A DNA stretch of 64,000 bases from a virus (IMGVR_UViG_3300050194_000011:44113-108112); one strand, 5' to 3'; counted from the first letter of the stretch, positions 21,615 through 41,982 are shown. The notes: generated by a model from the letters alone, not told the origin. A program made the numbers and translations.

Positions 21615-21860
21615 TTATTTTGTTAATTGTTTTAGAATTTTATTCTTTTCTTCATTCCACTTACGACATTCTTGATACAACTTGAAAGTTTCTGCAGATT
21701 GATTAAGCAGATCCGTATCAAGAGAACTTTTTGCTATAGGTAGATTCGGACAAGAGTAAAAAACTTCTGATGGTATATTTAGGTTAGCCGAACTTCTTTC
21801 TGTATGAGTAGCACATGCAGATAGAAGAAAGATAAAGATTGATATGATTAGATTTTTCAT
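21615..21860 (-). CDS. o-spanin (Rz1-like outer-membrane lipoprotein)
   Basis: 81 aa; MKNLIISIFIFLLSA|C lipobox, Pro/Cys periplasmic part (CPNLP...YQECR), downstream of an i-spanin-like gene. Confidence 0.75.
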   Translation of the reverse strand: MKNLIISIFIFLLSACATHTERSSANLNIPSEVFYSCPNLPIAKSSLDTDLLNQSAETFKLYQECRKWNEEKNKILKQLTK

Positions 21861-22141
21861 GGCTTGTAATTTGGATTTCTAGCTAGATTCGAACGAACCC
21901 ATGAATCTTCATCATTCGCAAGTTTATCCATGTGCTCTTTATGAATAGAAGGATTTCCAGCTAGAAAATAACGAACATCTAAATTTTTATCATTCACTAA
22001 CTTATCAATGTGTTCTTTATGAAGAGATGGATGTCTAGCTATTCTACAACGAACATTTAAATCGTTATCGTTCACAAGTTCATCGTGATGTTCTTTCGAA
22101 CCATACTTTATCAGAAAGTTTATATGTTCGTCTTTGATCAT
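21857..22141 (-). CDS. LRV/HEAT-like 26-aa repeat protein (3 units), inserted between the spanins
   Basis: N-cap MIKDEHINFLIKYGSKEH, units xLVNDxxxxVRxxLAxNPSLHKEHxD, C-cap NPNYKP; ATGA overlaps at both ends. Confidence 0.8.
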   Translation of the reverse strand: MIKDEHINFLIKYGSKEHHDELVNDNDLNVRCRIARHPSLHKEHIDKLVNDKNLDVRYFLAGNPSIHKEHMDKLANDEDSWVRSNLARNPNYKP

Positions 22142-22605
22142 TTGTTTGCTTCTTTAATCATGCTATTCAGCGTATCAAGATATGTATCGGAAAATCTATT
22201 GCAAACTTGGTTTCCATCTTTGTTGAATTCAATCGTAACATTCTTTGATGAATCACGAGGATCTTTGACGATAAAAATCTTTCTAGGAGCTTTGTTCTTC
22301 TCTGACTCATACATAGCAGATAAAGAATCAATCTGAAGATCTTTATCTGCTATATCTTTCTTGATTCCTTCTAAGTTTGCTTTGACATTATTTGATATGT
22401 CATCTAGCTTCTTGTTGTATGCTGCTTGATCGGCTTCGTACTTCTGGATTGTCTTCAGAAGAGGAGCTTGCCAATGATTCTTTGATTGATAGAATCCAAA
22501 GAAGAAAGACGCAACTAGAAGCAAAGCAGCTAGAATTGGCTTCCAGTATTGGAGACACCAAGAGAACATTAATTTACCGATGTTTAAAAGAGTTAGAAAT
22601 GTCAT
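22138..22605 (-). CDS. i-spanin (Rz-like inner-membrane protein)
   Basis: 155 aa; single N-terminal TM (YWKPILAALLLVASFFFGFY) followed by a coiled coil; paired with a downstream lipoprotein. Confidence 0.75.
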   Translation of the reverse strand: MTFLTLLNIGKLMFSWCLQYWKPILAALLLVASFFFGFYQSKNHWQAPLLKTIQKYEADQAAYNKKLDDISNNVKANLEGIKKDIADKDLQIDSLSAMYESEKNKAPRKIFIVKDPRDSSKNVTIEFNKDGNQVCNRFSDTYLDTLNSMIKEANK

Positions 22606-22961
22606 GGCTTGTAATTTGGATGATTTTTGATTCTGTAACGAATATCAGAATATTCATGATTGACTAGCTTATCCATATGTTCTTTATGAAGAGAAGGATT
22701 TCCAGATAGAACATAATGAACATTCGGATTTTCATCATGCACTAACGTATCCATGTGTTCTTTATGAAGATTAGGATTTCCAGATAGATACATACGAACA
22801 TTCCAATTTTTATCATTCGCTAGCTTATCCATGTGTTCTTTATGAAGAGATGGATTTTGAGCTATATTCTCACGAACATATGTATCTTTATCATCGATTA
22901 ACTCATCCATATGTTCTTTCGAACCATATCTTGCTAAGAAATTCTTGTGTTGTTCTTTCAT
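22602..22961 (-). CDS. LRV/HEAT-like repeat protein (4 units)
   Basis: 119 aa; MKEQHKNFLARYGSKEH N-cap, HPNYKP C-cap; ATGA overlaps at both ends. Confidence 0.8.
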   Translation of the reverse strand: MKEQHKNFLARYGSKEHMDELIDDKDTYVRENIAQNPSLHKEHMDKLANDKNWNVRMYLSGNPNLHKEHMDTLVHDENPNVHYVLSGNPSLHKEHMDKLVNHEYSDIRYRIKNHPNYKP

Positions 22962-23161
22962 ACATCTTTTCCTAGATATTTTTGGTTCATTCTATCAAGA
23001 ATATTTTGTTTAGCTTCTTCCAGAACAACGTCTTCCAAATCATGTTTGTCCATAGCAACTTCATGACAAAGTTCTTCATCTTCATTCATTAAAGTCTTTT
23101 GATGTTCCTTGCTTCCATAGTTAGCAAGGAACTTCTTCTTAGCAAATTCCTTGGATATTAT
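22958..23161 (-). pseudogene. Degenerate LRV-family ORF with ATA in place of the start codon (or non-canonical start); not in the ORF track
   Basis: Hand translation (I)ISKEFAKKKFLANYGSKEHQKTLMNEDEELCHEVAMDKHDLEDVVLEEAKQNILDRMNQKYLGKDV*. Upstream stop forms TAATA where a TAATG coupling would be expected; its TGA overlaps ATG 22961. Confidence 0.6.
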
Positions 23162-23970
23162 TAATCCAGAAGATGTGGCTTCTCATCCCATGCTTTATGA
23201 AGACTAGGAGCGAGTCTCGTGAAGTCGTCATTGGAAATTTCTTGATCCTTGGCATCCATGAATTGATGTCCTAGATTCTTTCCGCCAGAAAAATACTGGA
23301 AGACTTTACCTTTCTTCTTATCATGAATAACGTGAAGACCACCTTCTTTGTTATAACGATCGAACATGTTCTTCGAATCATTTGTATAAGCTGTGCACCA
23401 ATCAGTCTTGCCTTTTTCTGAGCCACCGCCGTAGAGTTCTTGCGAAGCCTTCATATCTTTCAATTTGTATATCTTGATATTTTCGTCTTCGTGCTCAAGT
23501 TCTCGACCAGGATGTGGTTCTTCACTCACTGTATGCTTATCTGGATTTTCTTGGTATGGCTCGACAGCATCAGAAAGTTCTTTTACAGAATCATATTGAT
23601 TGATGTCTTTCTTTGGAAGCTTATGCTTGAATTGATCAAACGTTGAAAGTATACCATGAATCTTAGGAGCATCTTCTTGGAAAACAGGCGCATTGCGCGT
23701 CAGTTTACGATGCGATAGCTCATCATCAGACATACCAGAACGATTGTACTGATTTACAATCCAGTTCGTATAAAGTTTCTTCTTTGTTGGATCGCCATTC
23801 TCAGCAAAGTGATCAACGATTGCATCTGAATCTTTGTGATCGGCAAGTTTATCATGTGATGTGTTAATCTTGCCCTTGAATTGAGTCTTCAAGAAATCAA
23901 TACGTCCTTCGATCAAGAGTTGTTCTTGGAGTTCGATGTATTTCAGTGCGATGCTATCTAGTTTTGCCAT
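23161..23970 (-). CDS. Putative capsid-internal protein, WCT-motif (PcfJ-like) domain
   Basis: 269 aa; LLIE|GRIDFLK leader; DPTKKKLYTNWI and TDWCTAY motifs shared with 28415-29824. Confidence 0.55.
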   Translation of the reverse strand: MAKLDSIALKYIELQEQLLIEGRIDFLKTQFKGKINTSHDKLADHKDSDAIVDHFAENGDPTKKKLYTNWIVNQYNRSGMSDDELSHRKLTRNAPVFQEDAPKIHGILSTFDQFKHKLPKKDINQYDSVKELSDAVEPYQENPDKHTVSEEPHPGRELEHEDENIKIYKLKDMKASQELYGGGSEKGKTDWCTAYTNDSKNMFDRYNKEGGLHVIHDKKKGKVFQYFSGGKNLGHQFMDAKDQEISNDDFTRLAPSLHKAWDEKPHLLD

Positions 23971-23983
23971 GGTCTTTCCTATA

Positions 23984-24364
23984 TTAGTGGGATTTGTTAT
24001 TTAATCTTTGATTTTTAATTTTTTGAGCCATATGTTTTACATCAAAAGAAGGACTTTGCGTAGCTTTTTCTATCACATCATCCGGACAATTTGGGTGAAC
24101 AATTACCTGATATTTATCATATGTATAATCTTTATAAGCTTTTCTCAAATGATCTGCCGTGATGTATTTATTTCTTGGTTCTAGCATTCTTCTAGTAATA
24201 TATGTCGAGTCGTCATTCATTAATTTATCTATATGATCGCTAGAAAGATTTGGTCTATTGATCAATTCTGCTCTGACATAGTCGTCTGGATCTTCGATGA
24301 GTTCATTTGCATGATCCTCTGAGCCATATCTAGCCAAGAATTTCTTATGCTCTTCTTTGATCAT
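23984..24364 (-). CDS. Divergent LRV/HEAT-like repeat protein
   Basis: 126 aa; MIKEEHKKFLARYGSEDH N-cap; DPDDYVRAELINRPNLSSDHIDKL unit; ATGA overlap with upstream gene. Confidence 0.7.
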   Translation of the reverse strand: MIKEEHKKFLARYGSEDHANELIEDPDDYVRAELINRPNLSSDHIDKLMNDDSTYITRRMLEPRNKYITADHLRKAYKDYTYDKYQVIVHPNCPDDVIEKATQSPSFDVKHMAQKIKNQRLNNKSH

Positions 24365-24852
24365 TTTGATATCTCTATCTGATGCAACTTCACAGGAAAT
24401 GGAGAGTAAAAAGATGTATCTTTCATCTCAGAGCTTGTCATGTTATATCCAAGCCTCTTTGAAACTTTCTTCGCCAATGGCTCAAAAGCAGCATGAACAT
24501 CTGGAGTTCCAACGATTCTAACTTTGCCTCCTTTATCTACATGATCTTTACCCAGCGCGATTGCAGTAGATACGAATCTAGGATTTGGTTTATGTGCTTC
24601 TGGATTCATTGTTCCTTGCATACCAGAAGCAGGAAGGTGATGTAACTCTAGAGCACCATCATAATGGAAAGCTGCTATCTTATCACCTTCTTCTCCAATA
24701 TCATAAACTTTGACATTCTTTGCGCCTTTTAATTCGGCAGAATGTTTCATCATAAAGCCCATCATATCGTCTTCTCCATCTTTGATAGAATATGGCTTAT
24801 CAAAGACTTCTGCGATGTATTCTTCTAGGAGATGTTCTTTAAAAGTTATCAT
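24361..24852 (-). CDS. Putative capsid-internal protein with capsid-targeting leader
   Basis: 163 aa; MITFKEHLLEEYIAE|VFDKPY resembles T4 IP leaders MKTFKEF/MKTYQEFIAE. Confidence 0.55.
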   Translation of the reverse strand: MITFKEHLLEEYIAEVFDKPYSIKDGEDDMMGFMMKHSAELKGAKNVKVYDIGEEGDKIAAFHYDGALELHHLPASGMQGTMNPEAHKPNPRFVSTAIALGKDHVDKGGKVRIVGTPDVHAAFEPLAKKVSKRLGYNMTSSEMKDTSFYSPFPVKLHQIEISK

Positions 24853-25301
24853 GGCGTGTAGTTTGGGTGCTGTTTAATTTTTATACGAACATCTCGATCT
24901 TGATCATCGGCTAATTTATCCATATGTTCTTTATGAAGATTAGGATTTTCAGCTAGATCCCAACGAACGTATGTATCTTTATCGTTCACTAGCTTATCCA
25001 TGTGTTCTTTATGAAGATTAGGATTACGAGCAATGCAAGACCTAACAATATTATCGTTAGAATCAACTAGCTTATCCATATAAGATTTAGAAAATTTTTG
25101 ATATTCTATCGCTGTATGTCTTACCTCATCATCAACTGTGTTCTTTGGATCATCAAGTAACGTATCTCTGTGATTTTCTTTTAACATGGGATTTTTAGCT
25201 AGATTATTTCTGATATTAATTCTATCATCATTCATCAATTCATCCTGATGATTCCCAGATCCATATCTATCCAAGAATCTTTTATGCTCTTCTTTGATCA
25301 T
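24849..25301 (-). CDS. LRV/HEAT-like repeat protein (5 units)
   Basis: 150 aa; MIKEEHKRFLDRYGS N-cap, HPNYTP C-cap; ATGA overlaps at both ends. Confidence 0.8.
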   Translation of the reverse strand: MIKEEHKRFLDRYGSGNHQDELMNDDRINIRNNLAKNPMLKENHRDTLLDDPKNTVDDEVRHTAIEYQKFSKSYMDKLVDSNDNIVRSCIARNPNLHKEHMDKLVNDKDTYVRWDLAENPNLHKEHMDKLADDQDRDVRIKIKQHPNYTP

Positions 25302-26293
25302 CTCAGAACTTCCGAGTTTGCATTTGACGTGTTCCCACCTGTTACATGGAGTAATCCATCATGTACAATCGAGTGCTGTGTATCTTTATCTTTCGTAGCT
25401 GTGAAAACAGTAGGAGAATGTCTATGAGTAGCATATCCTTCTGACGCCATGTGAATTTCATGCTTAGTTGAAACTTTTTCTGGCTCATCTGCGATTTTGT
25501 ACTTCTTGTATCCATTCCCGCTTTCTGTTCCGATCGCATATGGCTTAGAAGCTTTAGTTGCATCAATAAAATTCTGAACTGTCTTGAAAGGAACTTCATA
25601 TCCTATGTCAGTTTTATTCAGAATTTCCTTATGTTTGCTCGCTTCGTCTGAAGAAAGTTCCTTTTCGAGATTTTGATTAAAGTCAGTAGAGTTGGCTACA
25701 GTCCCATATCCTTTTCTTCCATCTTTTGTGATCGTTACAATGTGATTTCCTGTATCTTGATCATGGAAATGCATCTTGGTTACGGTTGATTTCTGTTCTG
25801 GATTGTATTCGGTAGGATGCGGAACTTCTTCTGATTCTCTTGTTACTTTGAATGGATCTCGATACCCATCAGCATGAGCGTCTTCTAGATATTGACGCAT
25901 ACGACCAGATATATCAGATTTAGATTTGAGTCTTTTCGTTGTTCTGACTCCATTTCTGTTTAATGAACCGTTTTCTCTGAATTTTCCATAATCGCCAAGA
26001 TTATGTAAGATAGATTCGCCAAGCTTTGGATGCATTGCAAGCATAGTAGGATGCCAAGTAACATTAACATCACCATAAGAATTAGTATGAGCAATGGCAA
26101 TTGGCATTCCTGTTTCTTTCTCATGGATTTCATGAAAAGATTCAGTTGCTTTTGTTGGAACTGGATCACTGAGTCGATATCCATACTTTTCTTTATCTGC
26201 AGCATGTCGAGCTTTCAGCGCTGCTAGATTATTCTTAATAAGCTTCCAATCTAGTTCTTCGTTCAGAATTTCTGTAGTTTGATTTGTCATCAT
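25298..26293 (-). CDS. Hypothetical His-rich protein, putative capsid-internal protein
   Basis: 331 aa; TTEILNE|ELDW leader with an L-x-E site; composition like neighbouring internal-protein candidates. Confidence 0.45.
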   Translation of the reverse strand: MMTNQTTEILNEELDWKLIKNNLAALKARHAADKEKYGYRLSDPVPTKATESFHEIHEKETGMPIAIAHTNSYGDVNVTWHPTMLAMHPKLGESILHNLGDYGKFRENGSLNRNGVRTTKRLKSKSDISGRMRQYLEDAHADGYRDPFKVTRESEEVPHPTEYNPEQKSTVTKMHFHDQDTGNHIVTITKDGRKGYGTVANSTDFNQNLEKELSSDEASKHKEILNKTDIGYEVPFKTVQNFIDATKASKPYAIGTESGNGYKKYKIADEPEKVSTKHEIHMASEGYATHRHSPTVFTATKDKDTQHSIVHDGLLHVTGGNTSNANSEVLR

Positions 26294-26299
26294 TATTCC

Positions 26300-28378
26300 T
26301 TATTGCATTTCGACAGCACCGCGATCGATCTGAGTAGCTGTACGAGTTCTATTGAAGAAGTCTGTCGTCGGAATATTAAGTCCAGTTGATATACCACTGT
26401 TTCTAGCTGGACTGGACGTAATCAAGTTAGCATCGATTGATCCAGGCGTTTGATTTACTAACCCAGCTGAACCACAAAGATTTCCATTAACTCCGCAAGA
26501 TGTTCCGCCGCCACGAACGCTTTCTTTGATATTGTATGTTTCGATGAACGTCCAATAGTTACCATCTGGTTCTGGATAGATATCTGCAGATTGTTGATCT
26601 GCACCAGATACAGGACCTACAACAAAAGGATGTCCAATAAGAATATTATTGGTTGCATATAATGTTCCGGCTACTTGTGATCCAGCGCCTGCATATACAA
26701 CAGTGTTTCCTTCGCTTATAATCGTATTGTTAATCAAATAAACAGATTCTCCAGCATGTGCAACACTGACAGCCATCGCATCACCAAGTGCTCTACAGTT
26801 AGTAACATCTTCTGTGAATGATTTGCCATAAAAGAAATTACAATTACCAACAACAATTGAATTCGTTATAACAACATTGCCATTCACTTTCACCTGATTA
26901 CCAGCATTACCCTCGGCTTTCACTCTATTAAGCTTGATGTTGCCTCCAAGATTATGATACAGCAAATCCAATCCATCTGATACGTTGTAACGGAATGTTG
27001 CATCTTCTATTATCCAATCTCCAGCTGTAGCTGCTGCGCCCAATCCATCGCCATACCACGAGTGACAATTCGTGATTGTCTTATCTGGATATGTTTCAAT
27101 ACAACCATTCCATTCAACCATCAATCCAGTGAATTTCATTGTTCCTGTGTTTGATCCATTAGCACTATATCCATCAAATGCATTGGCAGCAAGACGAACA
27201 TTAGTCATTGTGAAATTGTTAATCACATTAGAGCTAATCCCTCCACCAGCTAATCCATGAATATCAAGATCGCGGAACACGATGTTTGATGCGTTTGTTA
27301 TTGATATCCCATCATTAGCCCAGTTTCCTCCGGATACACATGATGCTGCTCCAGGGTGATTGTAGCAATTTCCGTGATCTGTGATTTCAATACAAGCTAA
27401 AGTTATATTGTTTGCGTTTTGCATATTAATCATCATATAAGCAGCGCTAGCTCCCCAAAGAGTTGGCTTCAAATTAGAAGGACATCCAGATGTGTATCCT
27501 TCTCCAACGATACGCGTCGGATGACTGACGTCTGCACCAGATGGAATCGGCTTCATGTAGCAATCGTAACTATACGAAGAATTACATCCATCTGAATACG
27601 CTTGTGATGTTGAATCGATTCCAAGCGCATAATTACCATAATGTATGATAAGCGTGTCTCCTCCGCTTATACGAATAGCGTTATAGCTTCCGATTGGAGG
27701 AATTGCAACGAATGGATGTCCCCAAGCGCAAGCAAGTCCTGTTCCTGTTCCTGGATACGCTGCATTAGCTAAGCCATTACATTGAGTAGAATTTCCTCCA
27801 TCAGGACGAACATGATACGTTGTTCCATATGCAGCATACAAAGGATCGGTCGATACATGTACAGACCAAACTGCGTATGACATGTTACTATCTGGAAAGG
27901 TATTGCTTCTGAGCAAAGCACCAGAAGATATGCCATCAGATGATTCTAATACAGAATTTTTGAATACAGACCCATTGACAAGAGTCGAAGAAAAAGTGCC
28001 ATTAGCTGATGTAGAATATGGTGTTATAATTTTACATAAAGCCGGACTTAAACATCCTGTGACAGAATTCGGAACCGTATCGAATTTCTGAGCAGGAGAA
28101 AAATCAAGAAGTACCGATGTACTCAATGCCTGTGATGCAGATGTGGCATCTGCCAATGATGTAAACGTAAAACTTGTGCAGCGATCAAATAATGTGTTGC
28201 ATCGATCTCTGGCAAAATGTACATCGTACAGAGAGCCAGCGACGTTGACATTACTTGCTCCGACCAATTTTCCGTTGTTCGATACAACCAATTCTAAAGC
28301 AGACGCATTAGAACACGCTCCGATTAGCATAACAGTTGATAAAACAAATTTGTACAATATATTTTTTGTAATTGACAT
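26300..28378 (-). CDS. Secreted parallel beta-helix protein with extra N-terminal domain and choice-of-anchor-Q-like C-terminus
   Basis: Likely start MSITK at 28378 (RBS TAAGGA); signal peptide ...VMLIGACSNASA|LEL; YHVRPDGGNSTQCNGLANAAYPGTG, FRYNVSDGLDLLYH, EGNAGNQVKV, SPARNSG...TDFFNRTR...IDRGAVE. Confidence 0.75.
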   Translation of the reverse strand: MSITKNILYKFVLSTVMLIGACSNASALELVVSNNGKLVGASNVNVAGSLYDVHFARDRCNTLFDRCTSFTFTSLADATSASQALSTSVLLDFSPAQKFDTVPNSVTGCLSPALCKIITPYSTSANGTFSSTLVNGSVFKNSVLESSDGISSGALLRSNTFPDSNMSYAVWSVHVSTDPLYAAYGTTYHVRPDGGNSTQCNGLANAAYPGTGTGLACAWGHPFVAIPPIGSYNAIRISGGDTLIIHYGNYALGIDSTSQAYSDGCNSSYSYDCYMKPIPSGADVSHPTRIVGEGYTSGCPSNLKPTLWGASAAYMMINMQNANNITLACIEITDHGNCYNHPGAASCVSGGNWANDGISITNASNIVFRDLDIHGLAGGGISSNVINNFTMTNVRLAANAFDGYSANGSNTGTMKFTGLMVEWNGCIETYPDKTITNCHSWYGDGLGAAATAGDWIIEDATFRYNVSDGLDLLYHNLGGNIKLNRVKAEGNAGNQVKVNGNVVITNSIVVGNCNFFYGKSFTEDVTNCRALGDAMAVSVAHAGESVYLINNTIISEGNTVVYAGAGSQVAGTLYATNNILIGHPFVVGPVSGADQQSADIYPEPDGNYWTFIETYNIKESVRGGGTSCGVNGNLCGSAGLVNQTPGSIDANLITSSPARNSGISTGLNIPTTDFFNRTRTATQIDRGAVEMQ

Positions 28379-28414
28379 TACATTTTCCTTATGTTTGAGA
28401 TAATTCATATCTAT

Positions 28415-29824
28415 TTATTTGGCTTTCTTATTCTTGATTGCTGCTTCTTGCACAGAAGGATCGATATCGTCTTTGAGTGCTTCTACGTGTTCTTTAGGAG
28501 TATTTGGATTTCCTGCAACATTAGCTCGAACAAAATCATATTTTGATTTAGCAAGTGTAGCAAGATGTTCTTTGGGAGTTGATGGAGATTTAGCCAGAGC
28601 AGCATGCCATGTAGGATGTTCCATCAACTTATCATGAATTTCACGCGGAGCATTAGGATGTAGAATCGCAGCGTTTGTCATTTCTCTGGATTTTGTCTTG
28701 TCAAAAACACTCTTGACAATTTCTGGTTCTGTTTTCTTCTGATTCAGAATTATGCTATCCGCAACTTTTCCTCGAGCATACAATTTAGCTCTGAGATCTT
28801 TGTTTGCATTTGGATGATCATACATCGAATAATCGGTTTCATGTCCTTCATCTGTTATCTTATGAAGAACATCAATCGGACTATGTTTATTCTGAAGTAA
28901 TCCATGTTTATATATCATAATTGACTTGCCATTTGAGAAATCGCCTGGAGCTTTAACATCAGCAAGTTTTCTCAGGTGATCTTTGTTGCTAGATTCTTTA
29001 GCAACTTGATTTAATACTTTATTATGAGCAGCGGCATCCGGATCATGTTGATGAGCATTGTTAACCATATGATCGATTTGATCTGGTGACGTTGTTGCAA
29101 AATGCTTGCCCTGGAATTCTGGTATGCCTTTGATAGCAGGATGATCTCCAACAAATTTATTCATATCAATCGGCTTATCCAGATCATTCATGAATTGACT
29201 AGATTCAAAGTGCATTTGATATTTCTTGTTATCTGCTTTGGTGTTTACAACATAAAGAGGGCCTTGTTTGTTATAATTATCGAAAAGTGCCGAAGAATCA
29301 CCAGCAGTGCACCATTTCGTATTTGCACCATAGAACTTAGCAGCTTCATGAGTCTTGATTTTACGAACAGAAACATCATCGTCATCATGAAGAACTTCGG
29401 ATCCATCATCTTTGATCTGTCTAATTTCTTCTTTCTTCGAAGCAGCAGTTCCAACATGAGGCTGAACAGCATCTTCGACTGAGTTCAGATCAGGATACTT
29501 TCCGATATCTTTCTCATGGAGCTTTGCTTTGTATTTGTCAAAGTTTGACAGAGCGTCGTGGATACGAGCATGATCTTCTTGTCTGAAATCGCCGGCATGA
29601 TATTTGTCGGCAATCCATCCTGTATAAAGTTTCTTCTTGGTTGGATCACCATGCTCGGCGAAATGATCTACAATTGCTCCTGTATCCTTATGTTCGCCGT
29701 ATTCATCATGAGAATGATTTATACCTTTTTCTGTAAATCGTTGCTTCGTGAATTCAATGCGATTTTCTGTCAGGAGTTCTTCATTTAACTCATGGTCTTT
29801 TATAAATTCTTTGAATGATATCAT
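28415..29824 (-). CDS. Putative capsid-internal protein: WCT-motif domain fused to C-terminal LRV/HEAT-like repeats
   Basis: 469 aa; MISFKEFIKDHELNE|ELLTE| leader; paralogue of 23161-23970; C-terminal LAKSPSTPKEHLATLAKSKYDFVRANVAGNPNTPKEHVEAL repeats. Confidence 0.6.
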   Translation of the reverse strand: MISFKEFIKDHELNEELLTENRIEFTKQRFTEKGINHSHDEYGEHKDTGAIVDHFAEHGDPTKKKLYTGWIADKYHAGDFRQEDHARIHDALSNFDKYKAKLHEKDIGKYPDLNSVEDAVQPHVGTAASKKEEIRQIKDDGSEVLHDDDDVSVRKIKTHEAAKFYGANTKWCTAGDSSALFDNYNKQGPLYVVNTKADNKKYQMHFESSQFMNDLDKPIDMNKFVGDHPAIKGIPEFQGKHFATTSPDQIDHMVNNAHQHDPDAAAHNKVLNQVAKESSNKDHLRKLADVKAPGDFSNGKSIMIYKHGLLQNKHSPIDVLHKITDEGHETDYSMYDHPNANKDLRAKLYARGKVADSIILNQKKTEPEIVKSVFDKTKSREMTNAAILHPNAPREIHDKLMEHPTWHAALAKSPSTPKEHLATLAKSKYDFVRANVAGNPNTPKEHVEALKDDIDPSVQEAAIKNKKAK

Positions 29825-30834: not shown

Positions 30835-30862
30835 TTGACTTTGATTCGAAATCGTATATAAT
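30835..30862 (+). promoter_or_regulatory. Sigma70-type promoter for the plus-strand endonuclease
   Basis: TTGACT (30835-40), 16-nt spacer, TATAAT (30857-62), 14 nt before ATG 30877. Confidence 0.7.
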
Positions 30863-30876: not shown

Positions 30877-32526
30877 ATGATTGATATGACAATACAAGAA
30901 AAAATTAAAGACTTTGATAAGAATGATTGGCGTCAGGTCTCAATGCAATACAAGAAAGAACCAAAGCATGGATACACGCCAAAATATCTAGAAGTCATCA
31001 ATTACATCAAAGAAGCATACATAGACATTCCTTTTGCGGAAGCTGTTTTCATGTTGAAAACTGGACAAGAAAGGCAATCGTGTGTTGCATGCGGATTGTT
31101 TAACGTATTCAGGCAAGATCCTCAGCCGATGTACAATGTCTATTGTTCTCACAAATGTAGATCTGCAGATAAGAATACAACAGCAGAACCGATCATCATT
31201 GATGGTGTTGAATACGATAATTTTGTCAAAGCATCAGAAGCAATAAATGTATCAAGATTCTTGATCAGACATAGACTCTTTGATCCAACTTTTCCGAATT
31301 ATAAATGGAAAGCAGAAGATCATGATAAGAAATGTTTGGAAAAATTAAAAGAGTCACATCCAAAGATGATTGACGAAAAATATTTACAACAATGGAAAGA
31401 AAGCGGAAAAACAAGAAAATGGCTTGCTGATGATATGAATCTGACAGCAGAAACTATAGATTATGCATTGACATTCTTTGAGATAGAAAGACAGTTTTCG
31501 CAGATCTCAAAAGAAGCAGAAGAACTAAAGAACGATCCAGAATTACTTCGATCTTTGTATTCTGAGTTTACATCCGATGAACTTGCTGTGAAGTATAACA
31601 TATCACCATCGGCTATCTTACAATGGATGAAAATTCATGGCATAGAAGCTGATAAGAGTACAAGCCAATCTGCGATCGAAAGACACTTGATAGAATTCAT
31701 TAAATCTATGGATGATTCGATAGAAATTTTAGATCGAGACAGAACAGCGATTGGGAAAGAATTGGATATATACATCCCAAGTGCAAATCTTGCAATCGAG
31801 TGTGATGGTTTATTCTATCATTCGGAAGAACCAACTACTGCTGATAAAAATAAACATTCGATCAAGCAAAGATTATGCGAAGAAAAAGGAATTACGCTTC
31901 TAAGATTTGTTGATGTTGGAGAAACAGGAGATTCGAATAAACTGAAGATCATCAAATCAATTTTGATGGCAAAATTAGGTATGACCATCAAGATTCATGG
32001 AAGAAAATGTAATCTAGTAGATGTAGATTCTTCTGCAGGATCGAACTTCTTCAGAGAAAATCACATATCAGGAAATCGTGGCGCCTCAATGTACATCGGT
32101 CTGGAATACGAGAACGAACTAGTCATGTGTATGTCATTTGGACGACCAATATCAAGTAGATCACATGAATGGGAAATTGTTCGGATGGCGGCTAAAAGAA
32201 TGACTACAGTTTTCGGAGGATCAAGTAAAATATTCAAAGAATTTCTAAGAAGAACATCTGGAGATGTGATGACGTATGCTAATCTCAGATTTGGGAATGG
32301 TTCTGTCTATGAAAAATTAGGATTTACAAAAATAGGAAGAACCGATCCTGGATATATGTACACTGATATGAAAACAACATATTCCAGACACAAATTTCAG
32401 AAACAATCGATTCAATCTGTTTGTAAAATTTATGATCCAAATAAAACAGAACAACAGAATGCTGAAATTAATGGATATAGAGTTTATTGGGATTGCGGGC
32501 ATGCAATCTACGAATTGAAAAGATAA
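30877..32526 (+). CDS. Free-standing Hef-like homing endonuclease (Vsr/DUF559-like nuclease, Zn ribbon, HTH)
   Basis: 549 aa; CVAC...YCSHKC; ELDIYIPSANLAIECDGLFYHS...KNKHSIKQRLCEEKGITLL; C-terminal YANLRFGNGSVYEKLGF...YRVYWDCG; only large plus-strand gene. Confidence 0.75.
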   Translation: MIDMTIQEKIKDFDKNDWRQVSMQYKKEPKHGYTPKYLEVINYIKEAYIDIPFAEAVFMLKTGQERQSCVACGLFNVFRQDPQPMYNVYCSHKCRSADKNTTAEPIIIDGVEYDNFVKASEAINVSRFLIRHRLFDPTFPNYKWKAEDHDKKCLEKLKESHPKMIDEKYLQQWKESGKTRKWLADDMNLTAETIDYALTFFEIERQFSQISKEAEELKNDPELLRSLYSEFTSDELAVKYNISPSAILQWMKIHGIEADKSTSQSAIERHLIEFIKSMDDSIEILDRDRTAIGKELDIYIPSANLAIECDGLFYHSEEPTTADKNKHSIKQRLCEEKGITLLRFVDVGETGDSNKLKIIKSILMAKLGMTIKIHGRKCNLVDVDSSAGSNFFRENHISGNRGASMYIGLEYENELVMCMSFGRPISSRSHEWEIVRMAAKRMTTVFGGSSKIFKEFLRRTSGDVMTYANLRFGNGSVYEKLGFTKIGRTDPGYMYTDMKTTYSRHKFQKQSIQSVCKIYDPNKTEQQNAEINGYRVYWDCGHAIYELKR

Positions 32527-33916: not shown

Positions 33917-33924
33917 TATTTATA
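33917..33924 (-). promoter_or_regulatory. T4 late promoter for gp23 (exact TATAAATA)
   Basis: Exact T4 gp55 consensus, 31 nt upstream of the gp23 ATG. Confidence 0.85.
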
Positions 33925-35251: not shown

Positions 35252-35923
35252 TTATCGAGTAGAAATTTTATTCAAAAAGTTCTGAAACTCTTTTAATTTC
35301 TGTTCTTCTAATTTATTCATTGATACTCTACGAATTCGTTCTTTACTTTCATAAAGATCTTTCTCGACAAGCAGATCGCCATACTTCAGGTAATGCGTTT
35401 CTTCCATGAGACAATCTACAAATGCATCTGCTACAGATGGATCAAATACAACGTCAGCAGCAGTTCTAATTTCATAGTCTTCTTTGACATGAACTTTTCC
35501 ATCTTTCTTGAAGGTAGATCCCATGCCTCTTGATGAAACGCCAATCTTGACTCCATCATTCAATAGATTAGCTAATAGCTGACCTAAAGGAGTAGATAGA
35601 ACCTTAGCTTTACCGATGAAATATTTTCCATCCTTTTCAAGAGATTCTGTCATGATACATGCACGCTCAGGATCAACAGAAATTCTTCCAGTTGGATGAT
35701 TCAATTCGCCAAGAGCTCTCTTTGGTTTGATGTATTCTTCTATGTATCTTTCAACAGCAGGAGCCATTACTTTTTCTGGATAGACTCGACCATTTTTGTT
35801 CTGCTTATCAAACATCAGAAATGGCCCTTGAATCTTCAAAGACCTTTTACCATTGACTTCTTCGACAAGAGTCTCTGTAGCAGATGCTAAATTTTGCTCT
35901 ATGAGTAGAATCTTATTAGTCAT
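35252..35923 (-). CDS. gp21: Prohead protease
   Basis: 223 aa; NKNGRVYP, RALGELNHP, GVSSRGMG, DVVFDPSVADAFV. Confidence 0.95.
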   Translation of the reverse strand: MTNKILLIEQNLASATETLVEEVNGKRSLKIQGPFLMFDKQNKNGRVYPEKVMAPAVERYIEEYIKPKRALGELNHPTGRISVDPERACIMTESLEKDGKYFIGKAKVLSTPLGQLLANLLNDGVKIGVSSRGMGSTFKKDGKVHVKEDYEIRTAADVVFDPSVADAFVDCLMEETHYLKYGDLLVEKDLYESKERIRRVSMNKLEEQKLKEFQNFLNKISTR

Positions 35924-36600: not shown

Positions 36601-36759
36601 TTATTCTTTCTCAGTCTTCTTTCCAAAGAGAGACTTTGCAATCTCTCTTTTCTTTTCATTTAATTTCTCAGCAAGTTTCTGATAGACCGCTTTATTGAAA
36701 GTGTCATCGACATCTTTTTCTGATTTGATTGCTTCTATTAAATTTTTAATCTTATCCAT
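36601..36759 (-). CDS. gp67: Prohead core protein, gp67-like (52 aa; not in the ORF track)
   Basis: Hand translation MDKIKNLIEAIKSEKDVDDTFNKAVYQKLAEKLNEKKREIAKSLFGKKTEKE; LIEAIKS and EK..IA match the T4 gp67 N-terminus; directly follows gp20. Confidence 0.7.
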   Translation of the reverse strand: MDKIKNLIEAIKSEKDVDDTFNKAVYQKLAEKLNEKKREIAKSLFGKKTEKE

Positions 36760-38272: not shown

Positions 38273-38442
38273 TAATTATGCTCCTTCATAAAAAGACCTT
38301 CGATTTCATAAGGATAATCTTTGTATTCATCTTCATTGAATACATCTGTATAGAAGAATCCCATCGATTCAAACATTTCCATGTAAGAATTAATCTTGTC
38401 TTTATCTCGTTTGTAAAGAGGAACTATATCAAATGATTTCAT
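38272..38442 (-). CDS. Small acidic hypothetical protein (56 aa; not in the ORF track)
   Basis: MKSFDIVPLYKRDKDKINSYMEMFESMGFFYTDVFNEDEYKDYPYEIEGLFMKEHN; ATGA overlap upstream, TAATG overlap with gp20, and it carries the gp20 RBS (AAGGAG). Confidence 0.6.
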   Translation of the reverse strand: MKSFDIVPLYKRDKDKINSYMEMFESMGFFYTDVFNEDEYKDYPYEIEGLFMKEHN

Positions 38443-38849
38443 TCTTTTCCAGCTATGTGTGCGGTTCTAACACGAACCATGATCCAAGAGTTGTAGTATT
38501 GGTCTGGTTTCAAAAGAGCATCCTCTTGAAACTGCCACTTGGCTTCGTAGTAAGAAACTAATGACTTACTCTTGTGAATACTTAACACCTCTCTTTTGAA
38601 GTTCTCCTTACCAAATTCTTTCACATCGGTCTGGAGAGCTTCGTTCGATCCGTAATAGCTTTTCCAAGAAGACTCGACTTTAGTCTTCTTTTTCTTCCCA
38701 TTCACAACAATCGTCTTTGAAGACCAAAAGCTCTTTTTGCCGATATACATCTTCCCATTAGCAAGATTTGTAATACGATAGACAAAACCTTCCGGTTTCC
38801 CAGAAGGTAATTCATTCATAATAGATCCATCTGATAAAATCCAGGTCAT
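38439..38849 (-). CDS. Minimal GIY-YIG nuclease-domain protein
   Basis: 136 aa; GFVYRITNLANGKMYIGKK, YYGS, SYYE, YYN; no appended DNA-binding domain. Confidence 0.75.
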   Translation of the reverse strand: MTWILSDGSIMNELPSGKPEGFVYRITNLANGKMYIGKKSFWSSKTIVVNGKKKKTKVESSWKSYYGSNEALQTDVKEFGKENFKREVLSIHKSKSLVSYYEAKWQFQEDALLKPDQYYNSWIMVRVRTAHIAGKE

Positions 38850-39392
38850 TTAGAAGCTAAGTGTGCTATTGATGCCGGATGATTCATAATAGTCGTATGC
38901 AAATGTTACTTCAAATATTTCTACTTGATTGTTAGCTTCAAAGTCCAATTGAATCGGACTAACTTGAACAGGAAATGCATCAATCAAACGATACGTCTTC
39001 AAAACATCTCCAGCACGATCAAGCTGATTCACAAATAGATCGGTTTGATATTGAGCAGGAGCAACGATACCAGTATTGTTGCCCAGATCATTGATACCAT
39101 GCATCCAACGTTCAAACGAATCACGAACGGTGAAGTCTTCGTTATAGACAGCAATCGTCCATGGTTGGAATTCACGTTCACCAGCAACATTTATTGATCT
39201 GCCCTGGAAAAAGACAGGTACAGGTTGAATTGTGCTTTCTGGAAGCGATGCAGACTTGCAATGGAATTGACCAAGCTGAGAAGCCTGGATTCCGGTAGGA
39301 ACAAACCCAGGAAATGTCAGGTCAACACGGAAAGTATTAGGTCTGACAAGACCTGTTTTAAGCGAGGCGCGAAAGCCACTAATATTTGCCAT
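38850..39392 (-). CDS. gp19: Tail tube protein
   Basis: 180 aa; RPNTFRV, CKSASLP, FQGRSINVAGEREFQPWTIAVYN, AFPVQVSPIQLDFE.NNQVEIFEVTFAY. Confidence 0.95.
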   Translation of the reverse strand: MANISGFRASLKTGLVRPNTFRVDLTFPGFVPTGIQASQLGQFHCKSASLPESTIQPVPVFFQGRSINVAGEREFQPWTIAVYNEDFTVRDSFERWMHGINDLGNNTGIVAPAQYQTDLFVNQLDRAGDVLKTYRLIDAFPVQVSPIQLDFEANNQVEIFEVTFAYDYYESSGINSTLSF

Positions 39393-39405
39393 TTAGATTT
39401 ACCTC

Positions 39406-41343
39406 TTATTGACCAGTGATTTCAGAGAATGCAACACCTTCTGGCGTAGCAATGAAGTTGAGTTTGATGAATCTGATAGACTTCGTAGACTTGATATAAA
39501 TGTTCGCAGCAAAAGTCTTTGATTGAATAACAGTTGAAGTATTTACATTCGAGCCAACATCCACATAGAAGTCGGAAATACCACCACGTCCTTGAATGTC
39601 TCTGAGGAATGGTGTAATCATCGAAACGAAAAGTTTACGAGTCAATTCTGTATTTTGTTCGAACAAGAAGAATCTAGCGCTTGACGAAATAGATTTTTCA
39701 AGTAGAATGAACAACAAACGAATACCAATAGCATCAAAGTCTGATGGGCGATCAAGCAACGTTTTATCAGAGAATAGAATTGGTCCAGAGTTAGGGAACG
39801 ATACAACAAAGTTGATCGAGTTTTGGAACAATGTATCTCTTTGTGATTTGTTAGGATTGATAGCCAAACGAGTTACGTTCTTAACAGATCCGCGATTGAA
39901 ACCAGCAGGCGAAGCCCATTCATTTCTTGTGTAGATAGAACGAGCAGTAACACCGGCGCAATCACCATTCAATGCAATGTAACGATATACGTCGTTATAT
40001 TTGTCGTATTGATATTTGAAACCAGAATCGAGGAATGCGTAAGAAGAACCAGAAAGAGCATTTCGGAATGCAACGATCTTGTTGATGTTATCCGACGTAT
40101 CACCAATAATCACAGAATTATCTGAAACATTCACAGGCGATACAAAAGCTACGCAATCTCTACGAACTTCAGCAACGTTTTGTATTGCAAAGTTTGCAAC
40201 AGTAGGAGAAACCTTACCTGTCATCAAAAGAGTAATATCGTATTTCTGTGCATCTGCAAAGATTGAAATTGCAGATTCTTGTTCGCCATCAGTAGCACCA
40301 TATCCATCTGCTCCGCCTGAAAGAGTTACTGTCAGAGGTTTCACAAGATTCTTATAAGAACCAGGAGCAGTAGAATCGCCAAAATCCAATCCAACAGAAG
40401 TAACATTGGATGGAATTGGATGATCCATCCACCAAACCCATGTTGATTCACGAAGAGCATTTTTGTAGTAAGAAACGGTCCCATCATATTTCTTAGCATT
40501 TGATGCTTTTGAAATATTTTCGAGTTTTTCTAGAATCTGACCTTTTACTCCGGTAATCTTACCAGTAGCATCTAACACGATGATATGCATACCATCTCCA
40601 GTCGATTCCGATGCAACTGCTTGATCGGAGTCAATAGGAGCAGCAGCGAACTGCGATGCGTATTCCCATGTAGCTACAGCAGTTACATTAGGAGCAGCAA
40701 TTCCAGGAATATCAGATACTGTAATTTCTGTATCGCTTACGATTCCTGTAACAGATAAAGTCAATGCAGATCCACTTACGCTTACAGGCGATCCAGCAAC
40801 ATTGAATGTTAAAATGTCACCAAGTTGAACTTGAGATAAGAATGATGTTCCAGTTCCTGTAATTGTATTACTTGAATCAGACAATGATACTGTACCTGAT
40901 AGCGTTCTTTTGAACGTAGCAGCGTCAGCAACAGATATCTTGATGTTGTTTCCTAGAATGCCTGGATACTTAGCAGCGAACATGCCTACTACGGCAGATC
41001 CATTCGCGTAATTGGCTTCCCAGTCTTGGATGTTCTTTACAGAAATAGCAGTACCAGATGTTACAGCGTTCTTCTGTCCAGCAGTTGCTGTTCTGACAAG
41101 TCTTAGATCAGAAGAATACTGCAAGAAATTGTAAGCTGTAAACCAGTGATTGTAAGTGCTATTATTTGGCTTACCAAAATAATAGACCAGATCTGCCTCG
41201 TTTGTTACCTGAGTGACGTCGTTAACAGCACCCCATTCAAATTCACCGGCTAAAGCCCCAATTGATGATGCAACAGGAGTGATCCCTGTCGTCAGATCGG
41301 TTTCGGTAAATTCGACGGCTGGTGAGATTGAAAAATATGCCAT
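39406..41343 (-). CDS. gp18: Tail sheath protein
   Basis: 645 aa; SPAVEFTETDLT, GEFEWG, FLQYSSDLRLVR, YKYQYDKYNDVYRYIALNGD.AG, SPAGFNRG, FEQN..LTR..F. Confidence 0.97.
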   Translation of the reverse strand: MAYFSISPAVEFTETDLTTGITPVASSIGALAGEFEWGAVNDVTQVTNEADLVYYFGKPNNSTYNHWFTAYNFLQYSSDLRLVRTATAGQKNAVTSGTAISVKNIQDWEANYANGSAVVGMFAAKYPGILGNNIKISVADAATFKRTLSGTVSLSDSSNTITGTGTSFLSQVQLGDILTFNVAGSPVSVSGSALTLSVTGIVSDTEITVSDIPGIAAPNVTAVATWEYASQFAAAPIDSDQAVASESTGDGMHIIVLDATGKITGVKGQILEKLENISKASNAKKYDGTVSYYKNALRESTWVWWMDHPIPSNVTSVGLDFGDSTAPGSYKNLVKPLTVTLSGGADGYGATDGEQESAISIFADAQKYDITLLMTGKVSPTVANFAIQNVAEVRRDCVAFVSPVNVSDNSVIIGDTSDNINKIVAFRNALSGSSYAFLDSGFKYQYDKYNDVYRYIALNGDCAGVTARSIYTRNEWASPAGFNRGSVKNVTRLAINPNKSQRDTLFQNSINFVVSFPNSGPILFSDKTLLDRPSDFDAIGIRLLFILLEKSISSSARFFLFEQNTELTRKLFVSMITPFLRDIQGRGGISDFYVDVGSNVNTSTVIQSKTFAANIYIKSTKSIRFIKLNFIATPEGVAFSEITGQ

Positions 41344-41375
41344 GTCGTTCCTTTTGTTGAAGATAGTTCAAAAAT

Positions 41376-41390
41376 TATTTACTATTTAGG
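41376..41390 (-). promoter_or_regulatory. Tandem putative late promoters for gp18 (CCTAAATA, AGTAAATA)
   Basis: Two TAAATA cores 33-45 nt upstream of the gp18 ATG. Confidence 0.55.
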
Positions 41391-41982
41391 GAGATTTATA
41401 ATTTGGATGATTTTTGATTTTGTTAAGAACCAATTCATCTTTATCATTCGCTAGCTTATCTATATGTTCTTTGTGCAGGGATGTATTCATAGCTAGATTC
41501 CAACGAACCCATTTATCTTCATCGTCCACTAGCGTATCCATGTGTTCTTTATGAAGAGAAGGATTTCCAGCTAGATTCTTACGAACATTTCTATCTTCAT
41601 CGTCCACTAGCGTATCCATGTGTTCTTTATGAAGAGAAGGATTTCCAGCTAGATTATAACGAACATCTAAATTTTTATCTTTCACTAATTCATCCATGTG
41701 TTCTTTATGAAGAGAAGGATTTCCAGCTAGATTATAACGAACATCTAAATTTTTATCTTTCACTAACTTATCAATGTGTTCTTTATGAAGAGATGGATTG
41801 CTAGTTAGCTTGAACCGAACATCCGGATCTTTATCATGCACCAACTCATCAATGTGTTCTTTATGAAGAGATGGATTGCTAGTTAGCTTGAACCGAACAT
41901 CCGGATCTTTATCATGCACCAACTCATCAATGTGTTCTTTAGAACCATATCTTGCTAAGAATTGCTTATGTTGTTCTTTCAT
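41386..41982 (-). CDS. LRV/HEAT-like repeat protein (7 units) between gp17 and gp18
   Basis: 198 aa; same N-cap and C-cap as the other members; 78-nt tandem coding repeats. Confidence 0.85.
   Translation of the reverse strand: MKEQHKQFLARYGSKEHIDELVHDKDPDVRFKLTSNPSLHKEHIDELVHDKDPDVRFKLTSNPSLHKEHIDKLVKDKNLDVRYNLAGNPSLHKEHMDELVKDKNLDVRYNLAGNPSLHKEHMDTLVDDEDRNVRKNLAGNPSLHKEHMDTLVDDEDKWVRWNLAMNTSLHKEHIDKLANDKDELVLNKIKNHPNYKSP
41515..41940. repeat. 78-nt tandem coding repeats, including exact duplicates
   Basis: 41771-41848 is identical to 41849-41926; 41614-41688 is identical to 41692-41766; 63-nt identity between 41515 and 41593. Confidence 0.9.

What the first reader, a model, noticed from the sequence alone, without database searches (positions are those of the whole stretch)
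21857..41982. Phage-encoded repertoire of variable LRV/HEAT-like repeat proteins with shuffled modules
Seen: six genes (21857, 22602, 22958, 23984, 24849, 41386) share an N-cap (MxKExHKxFLARYGSKEH). Four have a 26-aa unit xLVxDxD-X-X-VR-X-X-LA-X-NPSLHKEHxD and the C-cap (H/N)PNY(K/T)P, with 3, 4, 5 and 7 units; 23984 is divergent and 22958 degenerate. The scaffold is nearly constant while unit positions 8, 9, 12, 13 and 16 vary (PD/FK/S, LD/YN/G, RN/KN/G, KW/WN/M, LN/CR/R, SW/SN/R, TY/EN/Q, WN/MY/G, NI/SC/R, TY/WD/E). Modules recur between genes: 21948-22032 and 41714-41798 differ at only 3 of 85 nt although 20 kb apart. The first 41 nt of 24364 vs 25301, and of 22961 vs 41982, differ at 3 positions each. 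Knowledge: as I recall, engineered alphaRep HEAT binders randomise the same i, i+1, i+4, i+5, i+8 spacing, which forms one binding face. Inference: a recombination-diversified library of protein binders (anti-defence inhibitors, immunity proteins or chaperones).
Basis: partly seen in the sequence, partly recalled or inferred. Interest (0 to 1): 0.82.

Follow-up and report, generated by a model that had tools for sequence, protein, structure and literature searches.

The report
Plug-in repeat-protein arms of a phage
An uncultured T4-like phage from leaf litter carries at least nine small helical-repeat (LRV/HEAT-like) genes with a constant scaffold and a variable face; their shared front end is predicted to dock onto a phage protein that carries a T4-type head-packaging leader, so they may be exchangeable binding arms of proteins packed into the virus head.

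Summary
The genes are LRV-type alpha-solenoids: Pfam LRV E=5.5e-16, AF2 pLDDT 96.8, best PDB matches 1LRV and alphaRep. The variable columns are the ones randomised in alphaRep binders. The family extends beyond the finding: at least nine N-cap genes in the 115-kb record, plus a 469-aa fusion at 28415-29824.

New here:
- The N-cap matches the first hairpin after an undescribed domain, "X", in phage proteins built as leader + X + repeats. About half of these proteins start like the T4 capsid-targeting sequence.
- X is fused to LRV/HEAT, DUF4116, ankyrin, LRR or WG repeats. A homologue in phage PA5oct is annotated as a virion protein found by MS.
- A complex prediction docks the LRV119 N-cap onto the C-terminal end of X269 (ipSAE 0.79, best control 0.00). 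The variable face stays free.
- Relatives lack these LRV genes at the same junctions, so they are gained and lost as cassettes.
- Eight near-identical population contigs show no SNP in the four array LRV genes or any length change, and no reverse transcriptase was found. There is no fast mutator.

Binder function and packaging are inferred, not shown. The scan noted a similar repeat-gene array in another genome (e1-5381154); I did not test whether it is related.

The parts
41386..41982 (-). LRV198a: N-cap, 6 full units and a C-cap unit, wedged between the terminase large subunit and the tail sheath
   Evidence: Pfam LRV E=5.5e-16, 58.2 bits. TRF period 78. AF2 pLDDT 96.8, pTM 0.89. Foldseek 1LRV TM 0.66, alphaRep 6bzx TM 0.69. 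The relatives L034 and L016 go straight from terminase to sheath.
24849..25301 (-). LRV150: N-cap and about 5 units, one of them degenerate. Its start overlaps the stop of p331 and its stop overlaps the start of p163 (ATGA).
   Evidence: Pfam LRV 22.2 bits. Absent from the syntenic relative L103.
23984..24364 (-). LRV126: N-cap and unit 1 conserved, the rest divergent helical repeats. It lies 13 nt upstream of X269.
   Evidence: Pfam LRV 25.0 bits. Absent from L103.
23161..23970 (-). X269: domain X alone, without repeats. It is the predicted docking partner of the LRV N-cap.
   Evidence: 46% identical to residues 9-225 of the 469-aa fusion. 74% identical to X268 in L103. Complex prediction with LRV119: ipSAE 0.79, best control 0.00.
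22958..23160 (-). Decayed LRV gene: a start-less N-cap relic followed by the 43-aa ORF
   Evidence: Translation of 22958-23179. No start codon upstream. In L012 an intact LRV gene overlaps the end of the X gene at this position.
22602..22961 (-). LRV119: N-cap, 3 units and a C-cap unit, between the relic ORF and the i-spanin
   Evidence: PHROG 20647 E=7.9e-12. Its N-cap residues 2-17 form the predicted interface with X269. Absent from L103.
21857..22141 (-). LRV94: N-cap, 2 units and a C-cap unit, inserted between the i-spanin (22138-22605) and the o-spanin (21615-21860) with ATGA overlaps on both sides
   Evidence: In L103 the two spanin genes are directly coupled by an ATGA overlap.
28415..29824 (-). 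X-LRV469: T4-CTS-like leader (MISFKEFI...LNE), domain X (about residues 1-235), then helical repeats ending in LRV units. This is the fused form of the X + LRV pair.
   Evidence: Translation. Pfam LRV_2 30.8 bits and LRV 27.5 bits. AF2 pLDDT 91.7. 113 homologues. The fused ortholog is 486 aa in G001.
24361..24852 (-). p163: candidate internal protein with a CTS-like leader (MITFKEHLLEE), lying between LRV150 and LRV126
   Evidence: Its homologue p283 in L103 begins MISFKEYLLEQ.
35252..35923 (-). T4 gp21-type prohead protease (Peptidase_S77). This enzyme would process CTS leaders.
   Evidence: Pfam assignment of the identical gene in L092.

Best explanation
The LRV genes encode small alpha-solenoid proteins of 94-198 aa, built from 26-aa LRV/HEAT-like units.

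Shown:
- The scaffold is constant.
- The solvent-facing side of the second helix varies (unit columns 9, 10, 13, 14, 17).
- The N-cap is the best-conserved segment of the family.

Strongly inferred from sequence: these genes are the detached repeat arms of a phage protein class built as T4-type capsid-targeting leader + domain X + repeat domain. The window carries one fused copy (X-LRV469) and one X-only copy (X269).

Supported only in silico: the N-cap, which is homologous to the first hairpin after X in the fusions, docks non-covalently onto the C-terminal end of X269. This rebuilds the fused architecture and leaves the variable face free.

Inferred by analogy with T4 internal proteins:
- The LRV genes sit in the structural-gene blocks, co-oriented with their neighbours and mostly overlapping them by ATGA, so I infer late co-expression with the virion genes.
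- X-bound LRV arms would enter the prohead, be ejected with the DNA, and bind different host proteins, for example defence enzymes.

Over evolutionary time the family changes by cassette gain and loss at ATGA gene junctions, by unit duplication and by exchange between paralogues. It does not change by a fast mutator.
For: Fold and class:
- (1LRV phmmer E=8.9e-5).
- Variable columns. They match the alphaRep randomised positions, which line its concave binding face (PMC3754942).

N-cap:
- Mean pairwise identity among 8 paralogues is 0.68, against 0.41 for unit 1.
- F8, G13, S14 and H17 are invariant across phages, and Y12 nearly so.
- It aligns with the post-X hairpin of the fusions. In L012 an X-only gene is overlapped by an N-cap LRV gene whose C-end matches that of X-LRV469. 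In the window an N-cap relic follows X269.

X family:
- 113 homologues, fused to LRV/HEAT, DUF4116, Ank, LRR or WG repeats.
- 45 of 99 start M-x-x-F-(K/R)-Q-F-I-x-E, like the T4 CTS MKTYQEFIAE (PMC8442874).
- 91 of 99 have (L/I)xE within the first 30 residues.
- T-even internal proteins are diverse anti-defence proteins that share only the CTS (PMC3012670).
- The PA5oct homologue EST35_0205 is annotated 'structural protein, ESI-MS/MS'.

Complex of X269 + LRV119:
- ipSAE 0.65, 0.81 and 0.79; best of 3 controls 0.00. In calibration the mark was reached by 58 of 80 solved complexes and 2 of 110 mismatched pairs.
- The three runs share 100% of contacts; partner pLDDT 89.
- The interface is X269 226-237 and 247-268 with LRV119 2-17, 37-38 and 63-64. 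None of the variable positions is in it.

Co-occurrence: a 173-kb relative (L107) has an X-only gene surrounded by five N-cap repeat genes.

Cassette turnover: L103 (gp23 89% identical, X 74%) has none of LRV150, LRV126, LRV119 or LRV94. L034 and L016 have no gene between terminase and sheath.
Against: - No experiment shows packaging, binding or any target.
- The free LRVs have no CTS-type leader or nearby (L/I)xE site of their own, so packaging depends wholly on the predicted docking.
- The record has two X genes for at least nine LRV genes.
- Halves of a split gene tend to pass complex prediction. I used my own alignments, so the calibration counts hold only roughly. No solved X-repeat complex is known to me.
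- The five HEAT-repeat paralogues of Vibrio phage vB_VmeM-32 carry a different N-domain, sit in early or accessory regions, and that phage gave no X match in the phage-collection search.
- The fold of X was not identified, and its invariant Cys with a nearly invariant His could mean an enzyme whose relation to the LRVs is different.
- pN/pS of about 1.2 at variable sites is compatible with neutrality.
Confidence: 0.42

Rival explanations
1. The LRVs are cytoplasmic binders that are never packaged. They would act late in the infected cell, as inhibitors of late-acting host defence or abortive-infection proteins, or as assembly or holding chaperones for virion and internal proteins. Any X contact would be incidental or regulatory.
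For: They lack a CTS-like leader. They are translationally coupled to many different neighbours: terminase, spanins, baseplate genes, p331 and p163. The Vibrio phage paralogues sit among early accessory genes and no X match was found in that phage. Small HEAT-like immunity proteins exist: the CDI complex chain 5t87_A scored Z 5.8, which is weak.
Against: This does not explain why the N-cap is the most conserved part and matches the post-X hairpin. It does not explain the recurrent X + LRV fusion and adjacency in three or more phages, or the complex prediction.
Confidence: 0.27
2. The LRVs are immunity or regulator proteins for X. Domain X would be a Cys/His enzyme effector, and the LRV N-cap would cover or control it until packaging.
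For: X has an invariant Cys in a G-x-x-T-(K)-W-C-T motif and a nearly invariant His and Gln. The predicted interface includes X269 residues 226-237, which hold the conserved His227 and Phe237.
Against: In the fused proteins the same contact is made within one chain, so it looks structural. Nine inhibitors for two X genes is hard to explain. No catalytic fold was identified for X.
Confidence: 0.1
3. The family is a largely neutral or selfish expansion. ATGA-bounded repeat cassettes would spread and decay through recombination, with no specific targets.
For: A decayed copy exists. Cassettes are present or absent between relatives. Recent unit duplications are 78/78 and 76/78 identical. pN/pS is near 1 at the variable sites.
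Against: All eight complete copies in the record keep open frames, intact caps and a scaffold under constraint (pN/pS 0.40). Column 13 holds mostly Tyr, Phe, Trp or Met (14 of 20 units), and column 9 is Pro in 4 of 20, as in natural alphaRep-type repeats. The family persists across distant T4-like phages.
Confidence: 0.12
4. The family is a hypermutation library, driven by a DGR or by repeat-number phase variation within the population.
For: None beyond the position-restricted variability.
Against: No reverse transcriptase was found in the 115-kb record. There are no SNPs and no length changes in the four array LRV genes across eight contigs from different samples, although 14 SNP positions occur elsewhere in the same 21 kb.
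Confidence: 0.02

Closest known systems
Leucine-rich repeat variant (LRV) protein of Azotobacter vinelandii (PDB 1LRV; Pfam PF01816)
   Same: The repeat signature is the same: L..L..D.D..VR..(L/V)A..(N)P. Two short helices alternate in each unit to form a solenoid. It is the best structural match (TM 0.66, rmsd 3.8 A over 185 columns) and the only PDB sequence match (E=8.9e-5).
   Different: The unit here is 26 aa, with a family-specific NPSLHKEH segment. By my recollection, 1LRV has 24-residue units and an N-terminal 4Fe-4S domain, which these proteins lack. These are tiny stand-alone phage proteins with a dedicated N-cap and C-cap, present as a multigene family.
alphaRep artificial binders and their natural HEAT-like repeat parents
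   Same: The variable positions have the same layout around the V-R pair: 18, 19, 22, 23, 26 there and 9, 10, 13, 14, 17 here. Pro is common at the first variable position in both. Both combine caps with a variable number of units. Structural match TM 0.67-0.69.
   Different: The repeat is shorter (the alphaRep modules run to at least position 30). The family is natural, not engineered. No target is known.
T4 internal proteins (IPI, IPII, IPIII) with the capsid-targeting sequence
   Same: Both are sets of diverse proteins that share a short N-terminal leader, which directs them into the prohead. The X-family leaders (for example MKSFKQFILE) closely resemble MKTYQEFIAE and are followed by (L/I)xE sites. 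A gp21-type protease gene is present.
   Different: The free LRV proteins do not carry the leader; only the X proteins do. Packaging of the LRVs would need non-covalent docking, which has no T4 precedent known to me. No proteomic data exist for this phage.
HEAT-repeat paralogues of Vibrio phage vB_VmeM-32 (KU160494; PHROG 20647)
   Same: A cultured Straboviridae phage with five paralogous genes. Each has a constant N-terminal part followed by 3-10 units of VAQYGNDxHRDILVNDxxxxVRxx, which vary at the same helix positions. The window's N-cap keeps this YGS..H unit type.
   Different: They have a different N-terminal domain of about 85 aa. The phage-collection search found no X match in that phage. 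The genes lie in early or accessory regions rather than between structural genes.

Membership tests
Pfam LRV (PF01816) / 1LRV-type repeat | HMM match above the curated gathering score | tested here: met
   LRV198a 58.2 bits, LRV94 26.7, LRV126 25.0 and LRV150 22.2, against a cut-off of 21.6. LRV119 scores 21.0, just below it.
Pfam LRV (PF01816) / 1LRV-type repeat | Solenoid of short alternating helices, one pair per unit of about 24-26 residues | tested here: met
   The AF2 model (pLDDT 96.8) has 15 alternating helices of 7-10 residues. 1LRV is the top Foldseek hit, TM 0.66. This is a prediction, not a solved structure.
alphaRep-type HEAT-like repeats | Variable positions at i, i+1, i+4, i+5, i+8 on the second helix, flanking a conserved V-R | tested here: met
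   Entropy is 2.5-3.2 bits at columns 9, 10, 13, 14 and 17, against 0.3 bits or less at V11 and R12. alphaRep positions 18, 19, 22, 23, 26.
alphaRep-type HEAT-like repeats | Variable residues form one exposed, concave face | tested here: inconclusive
   Model coordinates could not be read. The helix periodicity, the structural match to alphaRep, and the absence of these residues from the predicted X interface all fit. Solvent exposure was not measured.
T4-type internal proteins | N-terminal capsid-targeting sequence resembling MKTYQEFIAE, followed by an (L/I)xE protease site | tested here: not met
   This applies to the free LRV proteins. Their N-cap aligns with the post-X hairpin, not with the CTS. 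For X-LRV469 (MISFKEFI...LNE) and 45 of 99 X-family proteins the motif is present.
T4-type internal proteins | Presence in the mature virion and ejection into the host | not testable with these tools
   The only evidence is indirect: the X-domain homologue EST35_0205 of phage PA5oct is annotated as a structural protein found by ESI-MS/MS.
Diversity-generating retroelement targets | Reverse transcriptase in the genome, and variation within a population | tested here: not met
   No RVT_1 match in the 115-kb record, which is 64% complete. No SNPs in the four array LRV genes among eight population contigs.

The most novel reading that the evidence does not exclude
This would be a split, combinatorial effector system of T4-like phages. 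One leader-bearing handle protein (domain X) would be loaded into the head. A changeable set of mobile, ATGA-bounded repeat-protein cassettes would plug into it through a conserved N-cap. A single phage could then deliver a repertoire of different binders against host proteins with its DNA. The same handle is fused in other phages to LRR, ankyrin, WG and DUF4116 repeats.
Probability: 0.3. Interest if true: 0.85.

Novelty: new variant of a known kind. Interest (0 to 1): 0.68.

Why it matters
If the docking and packaging hold, this phage clade has a modular way to build and exchange virion-delivered binders. A constant handle that enters the head would be combined with interchangeable repeat arms.

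- This would extend the T4 internal-protein idea, in which diverse anti-defence proteins share only a packaging leader, to a non-covalent plug-in form.
- It would name a large undescribed family of viral proteins: domain X fused to five kinds of repeat domain.
- It would offer natural alphaRep-like scaffolds whose targets could reveal host defence proteins.
- The comparison with relatives gives a clean example of small genes inserted exactly at stop/start overlaps. One of them splits a spanin gene pair without breaking translational coupling.

Tried and rejected
- Close homologues of LRV198a were sought in the phage collection, in IMG/VR and in the 5.8-billion-protein set. There were none closer than 39% identity, and those were generic LRV proteins.
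- A profile search of 1.8 billion representatives with the LRV alignment returned 16,155 hits, dominated by long generic LRV/HEAT proteins. It could not isolate the N-cap subfamily.
- The fold of domain X was not identified. Foldseek against PDB, VIA-align wide and AFDB searches of the 469-aa model were filled by solenoid matches. A profile search against PDB sequences gave only repeat-protein noise. No Pfam or NCBIfam family matched. A PcfJ hint from the Atlas (26% of one cluster, score 0.90) was not backed by hmmscan. X should be folded alone.
- The idea that the LRV N-cap is itself a capsid-targeting sequence was rejected, because it aligns with the post-X hairpin of the fusions.
- A DGR or other mutator was rejected.
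- Sigma-70 promoter-like sites were no more frequent than in shuffled sequence, and terminator-like sites only slightly more (9 against 6.4). The T4 late motif TATAAATA occurs upstream of gp23 (33917-33924) but not inside the LRV array.
- Sequencing runs: 24 leaf-litter DNA runs hold the stretch, and no RNA holder is listed.
- Laying contigs of four runs gave only assembly breaks and cross-mapping at the repeats. The joints had about 30-nt sides, and there were no credible indels.
- The 212-kb contig that holds the complete genome could not be searched.
- BLASTP of LRV126 against the repeat tail of X-LRV469 gave only repeat-level similarity.

Full report
**Setting.** The window is positions 44113-108112 of a 114,748-bp IMG/VR virus record, estimated 64% complete. 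It holds the structural region of a T4-like myovirus, almost all on the - strand:
- terminase large subunit, 41984-43573
- tail sheath, 39406-41343
- portal, gp21-type prohead protease, scaffold and gp23

The same phage occurs at 99.8-100% identity in many contigs, the longest 212 kb. It is also found in 24 leaf-litter metagenome runs.

**Observation.** It is correct in detail.
- Five genes (LRV94, LRV119, LRV126, LRV150, LRV198a) start with M(I)KE(E/Q)HKxFLxRYGSxxH.
- Four of them continue with 26-aa units of D-x-L-V-x-D-x-D-x-x-V-R-x-x-L-A-x-N-P-S-L-H-K-E-H-(M/I) and end in (H/N)PNY(K/T)P.
- Tandem Repeats Finder reports the 78-nt period.
- The three nucleotide comparisons are exact.
- The called 43-aa ORF at 22958 has no N-cap. 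An N-cap relic with no start codon lies just upstream in the same frame.
- The whole record holds four more N-cap genes outside the window, and the 469-aa gene at 28415-29824 ends in LRV repeats.

**What the proteins are.**
- Pfam LRV matches LRV198a at E=5.5e-16, and PHROG 20647 (unknown function) also matches.
- AlphaFold2 gives a very confident solenoid of alternating short helices (pLDDT 96.8, pTM 0.89).
- The nearest solved structures are 1LRV (TM 0.66), alphaRep binders (0.67-0.69) and the PP2A A subunit. 1LRV is also the only PDB hit by sequence.
- Across 20 full units, entropy peaks at columns 9, 14, 13, 17 and 10 (3.2 to 2.5 bits), and column 7 also varies (2.4 bits). Ten scaffold columns have 0.3 bits or less.
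- Columns 9-15 form the second helix, so the variable set is one stripe of that helix.
- This is the layout randomised in alphaRep (positions 18, 19, 22, 23, 26). Those positions were chosen because natural repeats vary there, and they line the binding face (PMC3754942).
- pN/pS is 1.23 at the variable codons and 0.40 at the scaffold codons. The scaffold is constrained. The face is either unconstrained or under diversifying selection, and these data cannot tell which.
- Column 13 is mostly aromatic or Met (14 of 20 units).

**How the family changes.**
- Units are duplicated and exchanged. LRV198a units 1 and 2 are identical, and units 3 and 4 differ at 2 of 78 nt. The first ~120 nt after the start codon of LRV198a and LRV198b are 84-100% identical, against 61-84% for the rest.
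- Whole genes come and go.
  - In relatives with 80% and 69% identical terminases, the sheath gene follows the terminase directly.
  - In L103 (gp23 89% identical, X 74%) the order is p283, X268, i-spanin, o-spanin, p67, fibre, with no LRV gene. There the two spanin genes overlap by ATGA. In the window LRV94 sits exactly between them, with ATGA at both ends.
- There is no fast diversification. Eight population contigs carry 14 SNP positions in about 21 kb, none of them in the four array LRV genes, and no length change. No reverse transcriptase was found.

**Link to domain X.**
- The 469-aa protein consists of a leader (MISFKEFI..LNE), an undescribed domain of about 235 residues that I call X, and helical repeats ending in LRV units. 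Its model has pLDDT 91.7.
- X269 (23161-23970) is X alone.
- X has 113 homologues in metagenomic contigs, and the Atlas assigns its clusters almost entirely to viruses. The homologues are fused to LRV/HEAT, DUF4116, ankyrin, LRR or WG repeats, or stand alone.
- 45 of 99 begin M-x-x-F-(K/R)-Q-F-I-x-E, and 91 of 99 have (L/I)xE within 30 residues. The T4 capsid-targeting sequence is MKTYQEFIAE, cut once by the prohead protease (PMC8442874). T-even internal proteins are diverse anti-defence proteins that share only that leader (PMC3012670).
- An X homologue in the jumbo phage PA5oct lies next to the terminase and is annotated as a structural protein found by MS.

**The N-cap is the X/repeat junction.**
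- In the fusions, the hairpin after X reads, for example, KHFATTSPDQIDHMV or HGYYFAKDSKERDHLL. This aligns with HKxFLARYGSKEHxDELV.
- In L012 an X-only gene is overlapped by an N-cap repeat gene whose C-end matches that of X-LRV469. In the window the equivalent gene survives only as the relic.
- L107 has an X-only gene surrounded by five N-cap repeat genes.
- The N-cap is the most conserved part of the family (0.68 against 0.41 identity).

**Complex prediction.**
- X269 with LRV119 scored ipSAE 0.65, 0.81 and 0.79, against 0.00 for the best of three controls. In calibration the mark was reached by 58 of 80 solved complexes and 2 of 110 mismatched pairs. Contacts agreed 100% between runs, and the partner pLDDT was 89.
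- The interface joins X269 residues 226-237 and 247-268 to LRV119 residues 2-17 (the N-cap) and to the N-P-S loops at 37-38 and 63-64. It includes the residues invariant across the family (F8, G13, S14, H17) and the nearly invariant Y12. No variable position is in the interface.
- Caveats: halves of a split gene pass such tests easily, I used my own alignments, and the score is model confidence rather than a measurement.

**Interpretation.**
- Best reading (0.42): the LRVs are detachable binding arms that plug into the leader-bearing X protein and travel with it into the head, like T4 internal proteins.
- Rivals: unpackaged cytoplasmic binders or chaperones (0.27), neutral or selfish cassettes (0.12), regulators of an X enzyme (0.10), a mutator library (0.02).
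- What is established: the fold class, the variable stripe, the family size, the homology of the N-cap to the post-X hairpin, the breadth of the X family, and cassette turnover.
- What is inferred: docking, packaging, ejection and host targets.
- A similar repeat-gene array was noted by this scan in another genome (e1-5381154). I did not test whether it is related.

Noticed in passing
window 22958-23160: A start-less N-cap relic lies in frame with the 43-aa ORF, directly after the X269 stop. It looks like a decayed LRV gene or a broken X-LRV fusion.
   Followed up: yes
window 21615-22605: Rz-like i-spanin (155 aa, PHROG 1152) and o-spanin lipoprotein (81 aa, PHROG 2425/456) are separated by LRV94. 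In the relative L103 the two genes overlap directly.
   Followed up: yes
window 30877-32526 (+ strand): This is the only sizeable + strand gene in the region (549 aa). It has a weak match to the I-TevI DNA-binding domain, is 62% identical to a gene at the same place in L103, and is preceded by an 11/12 sigma-70-like promoter at 30835-30862. It may be a free-standing homing-endonuclease-like gene.
   Followed up: no
window 38439-38849: A SegE-type GIY-YIG endonuclease gene (136 aa) follows the tail tube gene. Similar GIY-YIG genes occupy that slot in L034 and L016.
   Followed up: no
L034:3698-4789: The terminase of the closest relative seems to carry an intein-like insertion. The ORF starts with a Cys-led segment that ends ...VHHNC, and then resumes terminase sequence at residue 268.
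   Followed up: no
window 26300-28408: A 702-aa protein with a signal peptide and beta-helix-like sequence sits inside the candidate internal-protein array. L103 has no detectable homologue of it.
   Followed up: no
window 24361-24852 and 25298-26293; L103:2727-5566: p163 and p331, and the L103 proteins p663 and p283, begin with T4-CTS-like leaders (MITFKEHLLEE, ..ILNE, MISFKQYLLTE, MISFKEYLLEQ). The stretch between gp23 and the fibre genes therefore looks like a plastic internal-protein locus.
   Followed up: partly
KU160494.1 (L014:11704-12666; L015:2929-3528, 8736-9458, 16629-17351, 20958-21422): Vibrio phage vB_VmeM-32 has five paralogous HEAT-repeat genes. Four of them share an N-domain of about 85 aa (the fifth, VmeM32_00182, starts differently), and all have 3-10 near-identical 24-aa units that vary at the same helix positions. 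Only one is annotated as a HEAT repeat protein.
   Followed up: partly
genome 114192-114641 (outside the window) and L012:110-562, L107:2989-3447: A TnsA-like endonuclease N-domain gene sits next to the baseplate/LRV cluster in three related phages.
   Followed up: no
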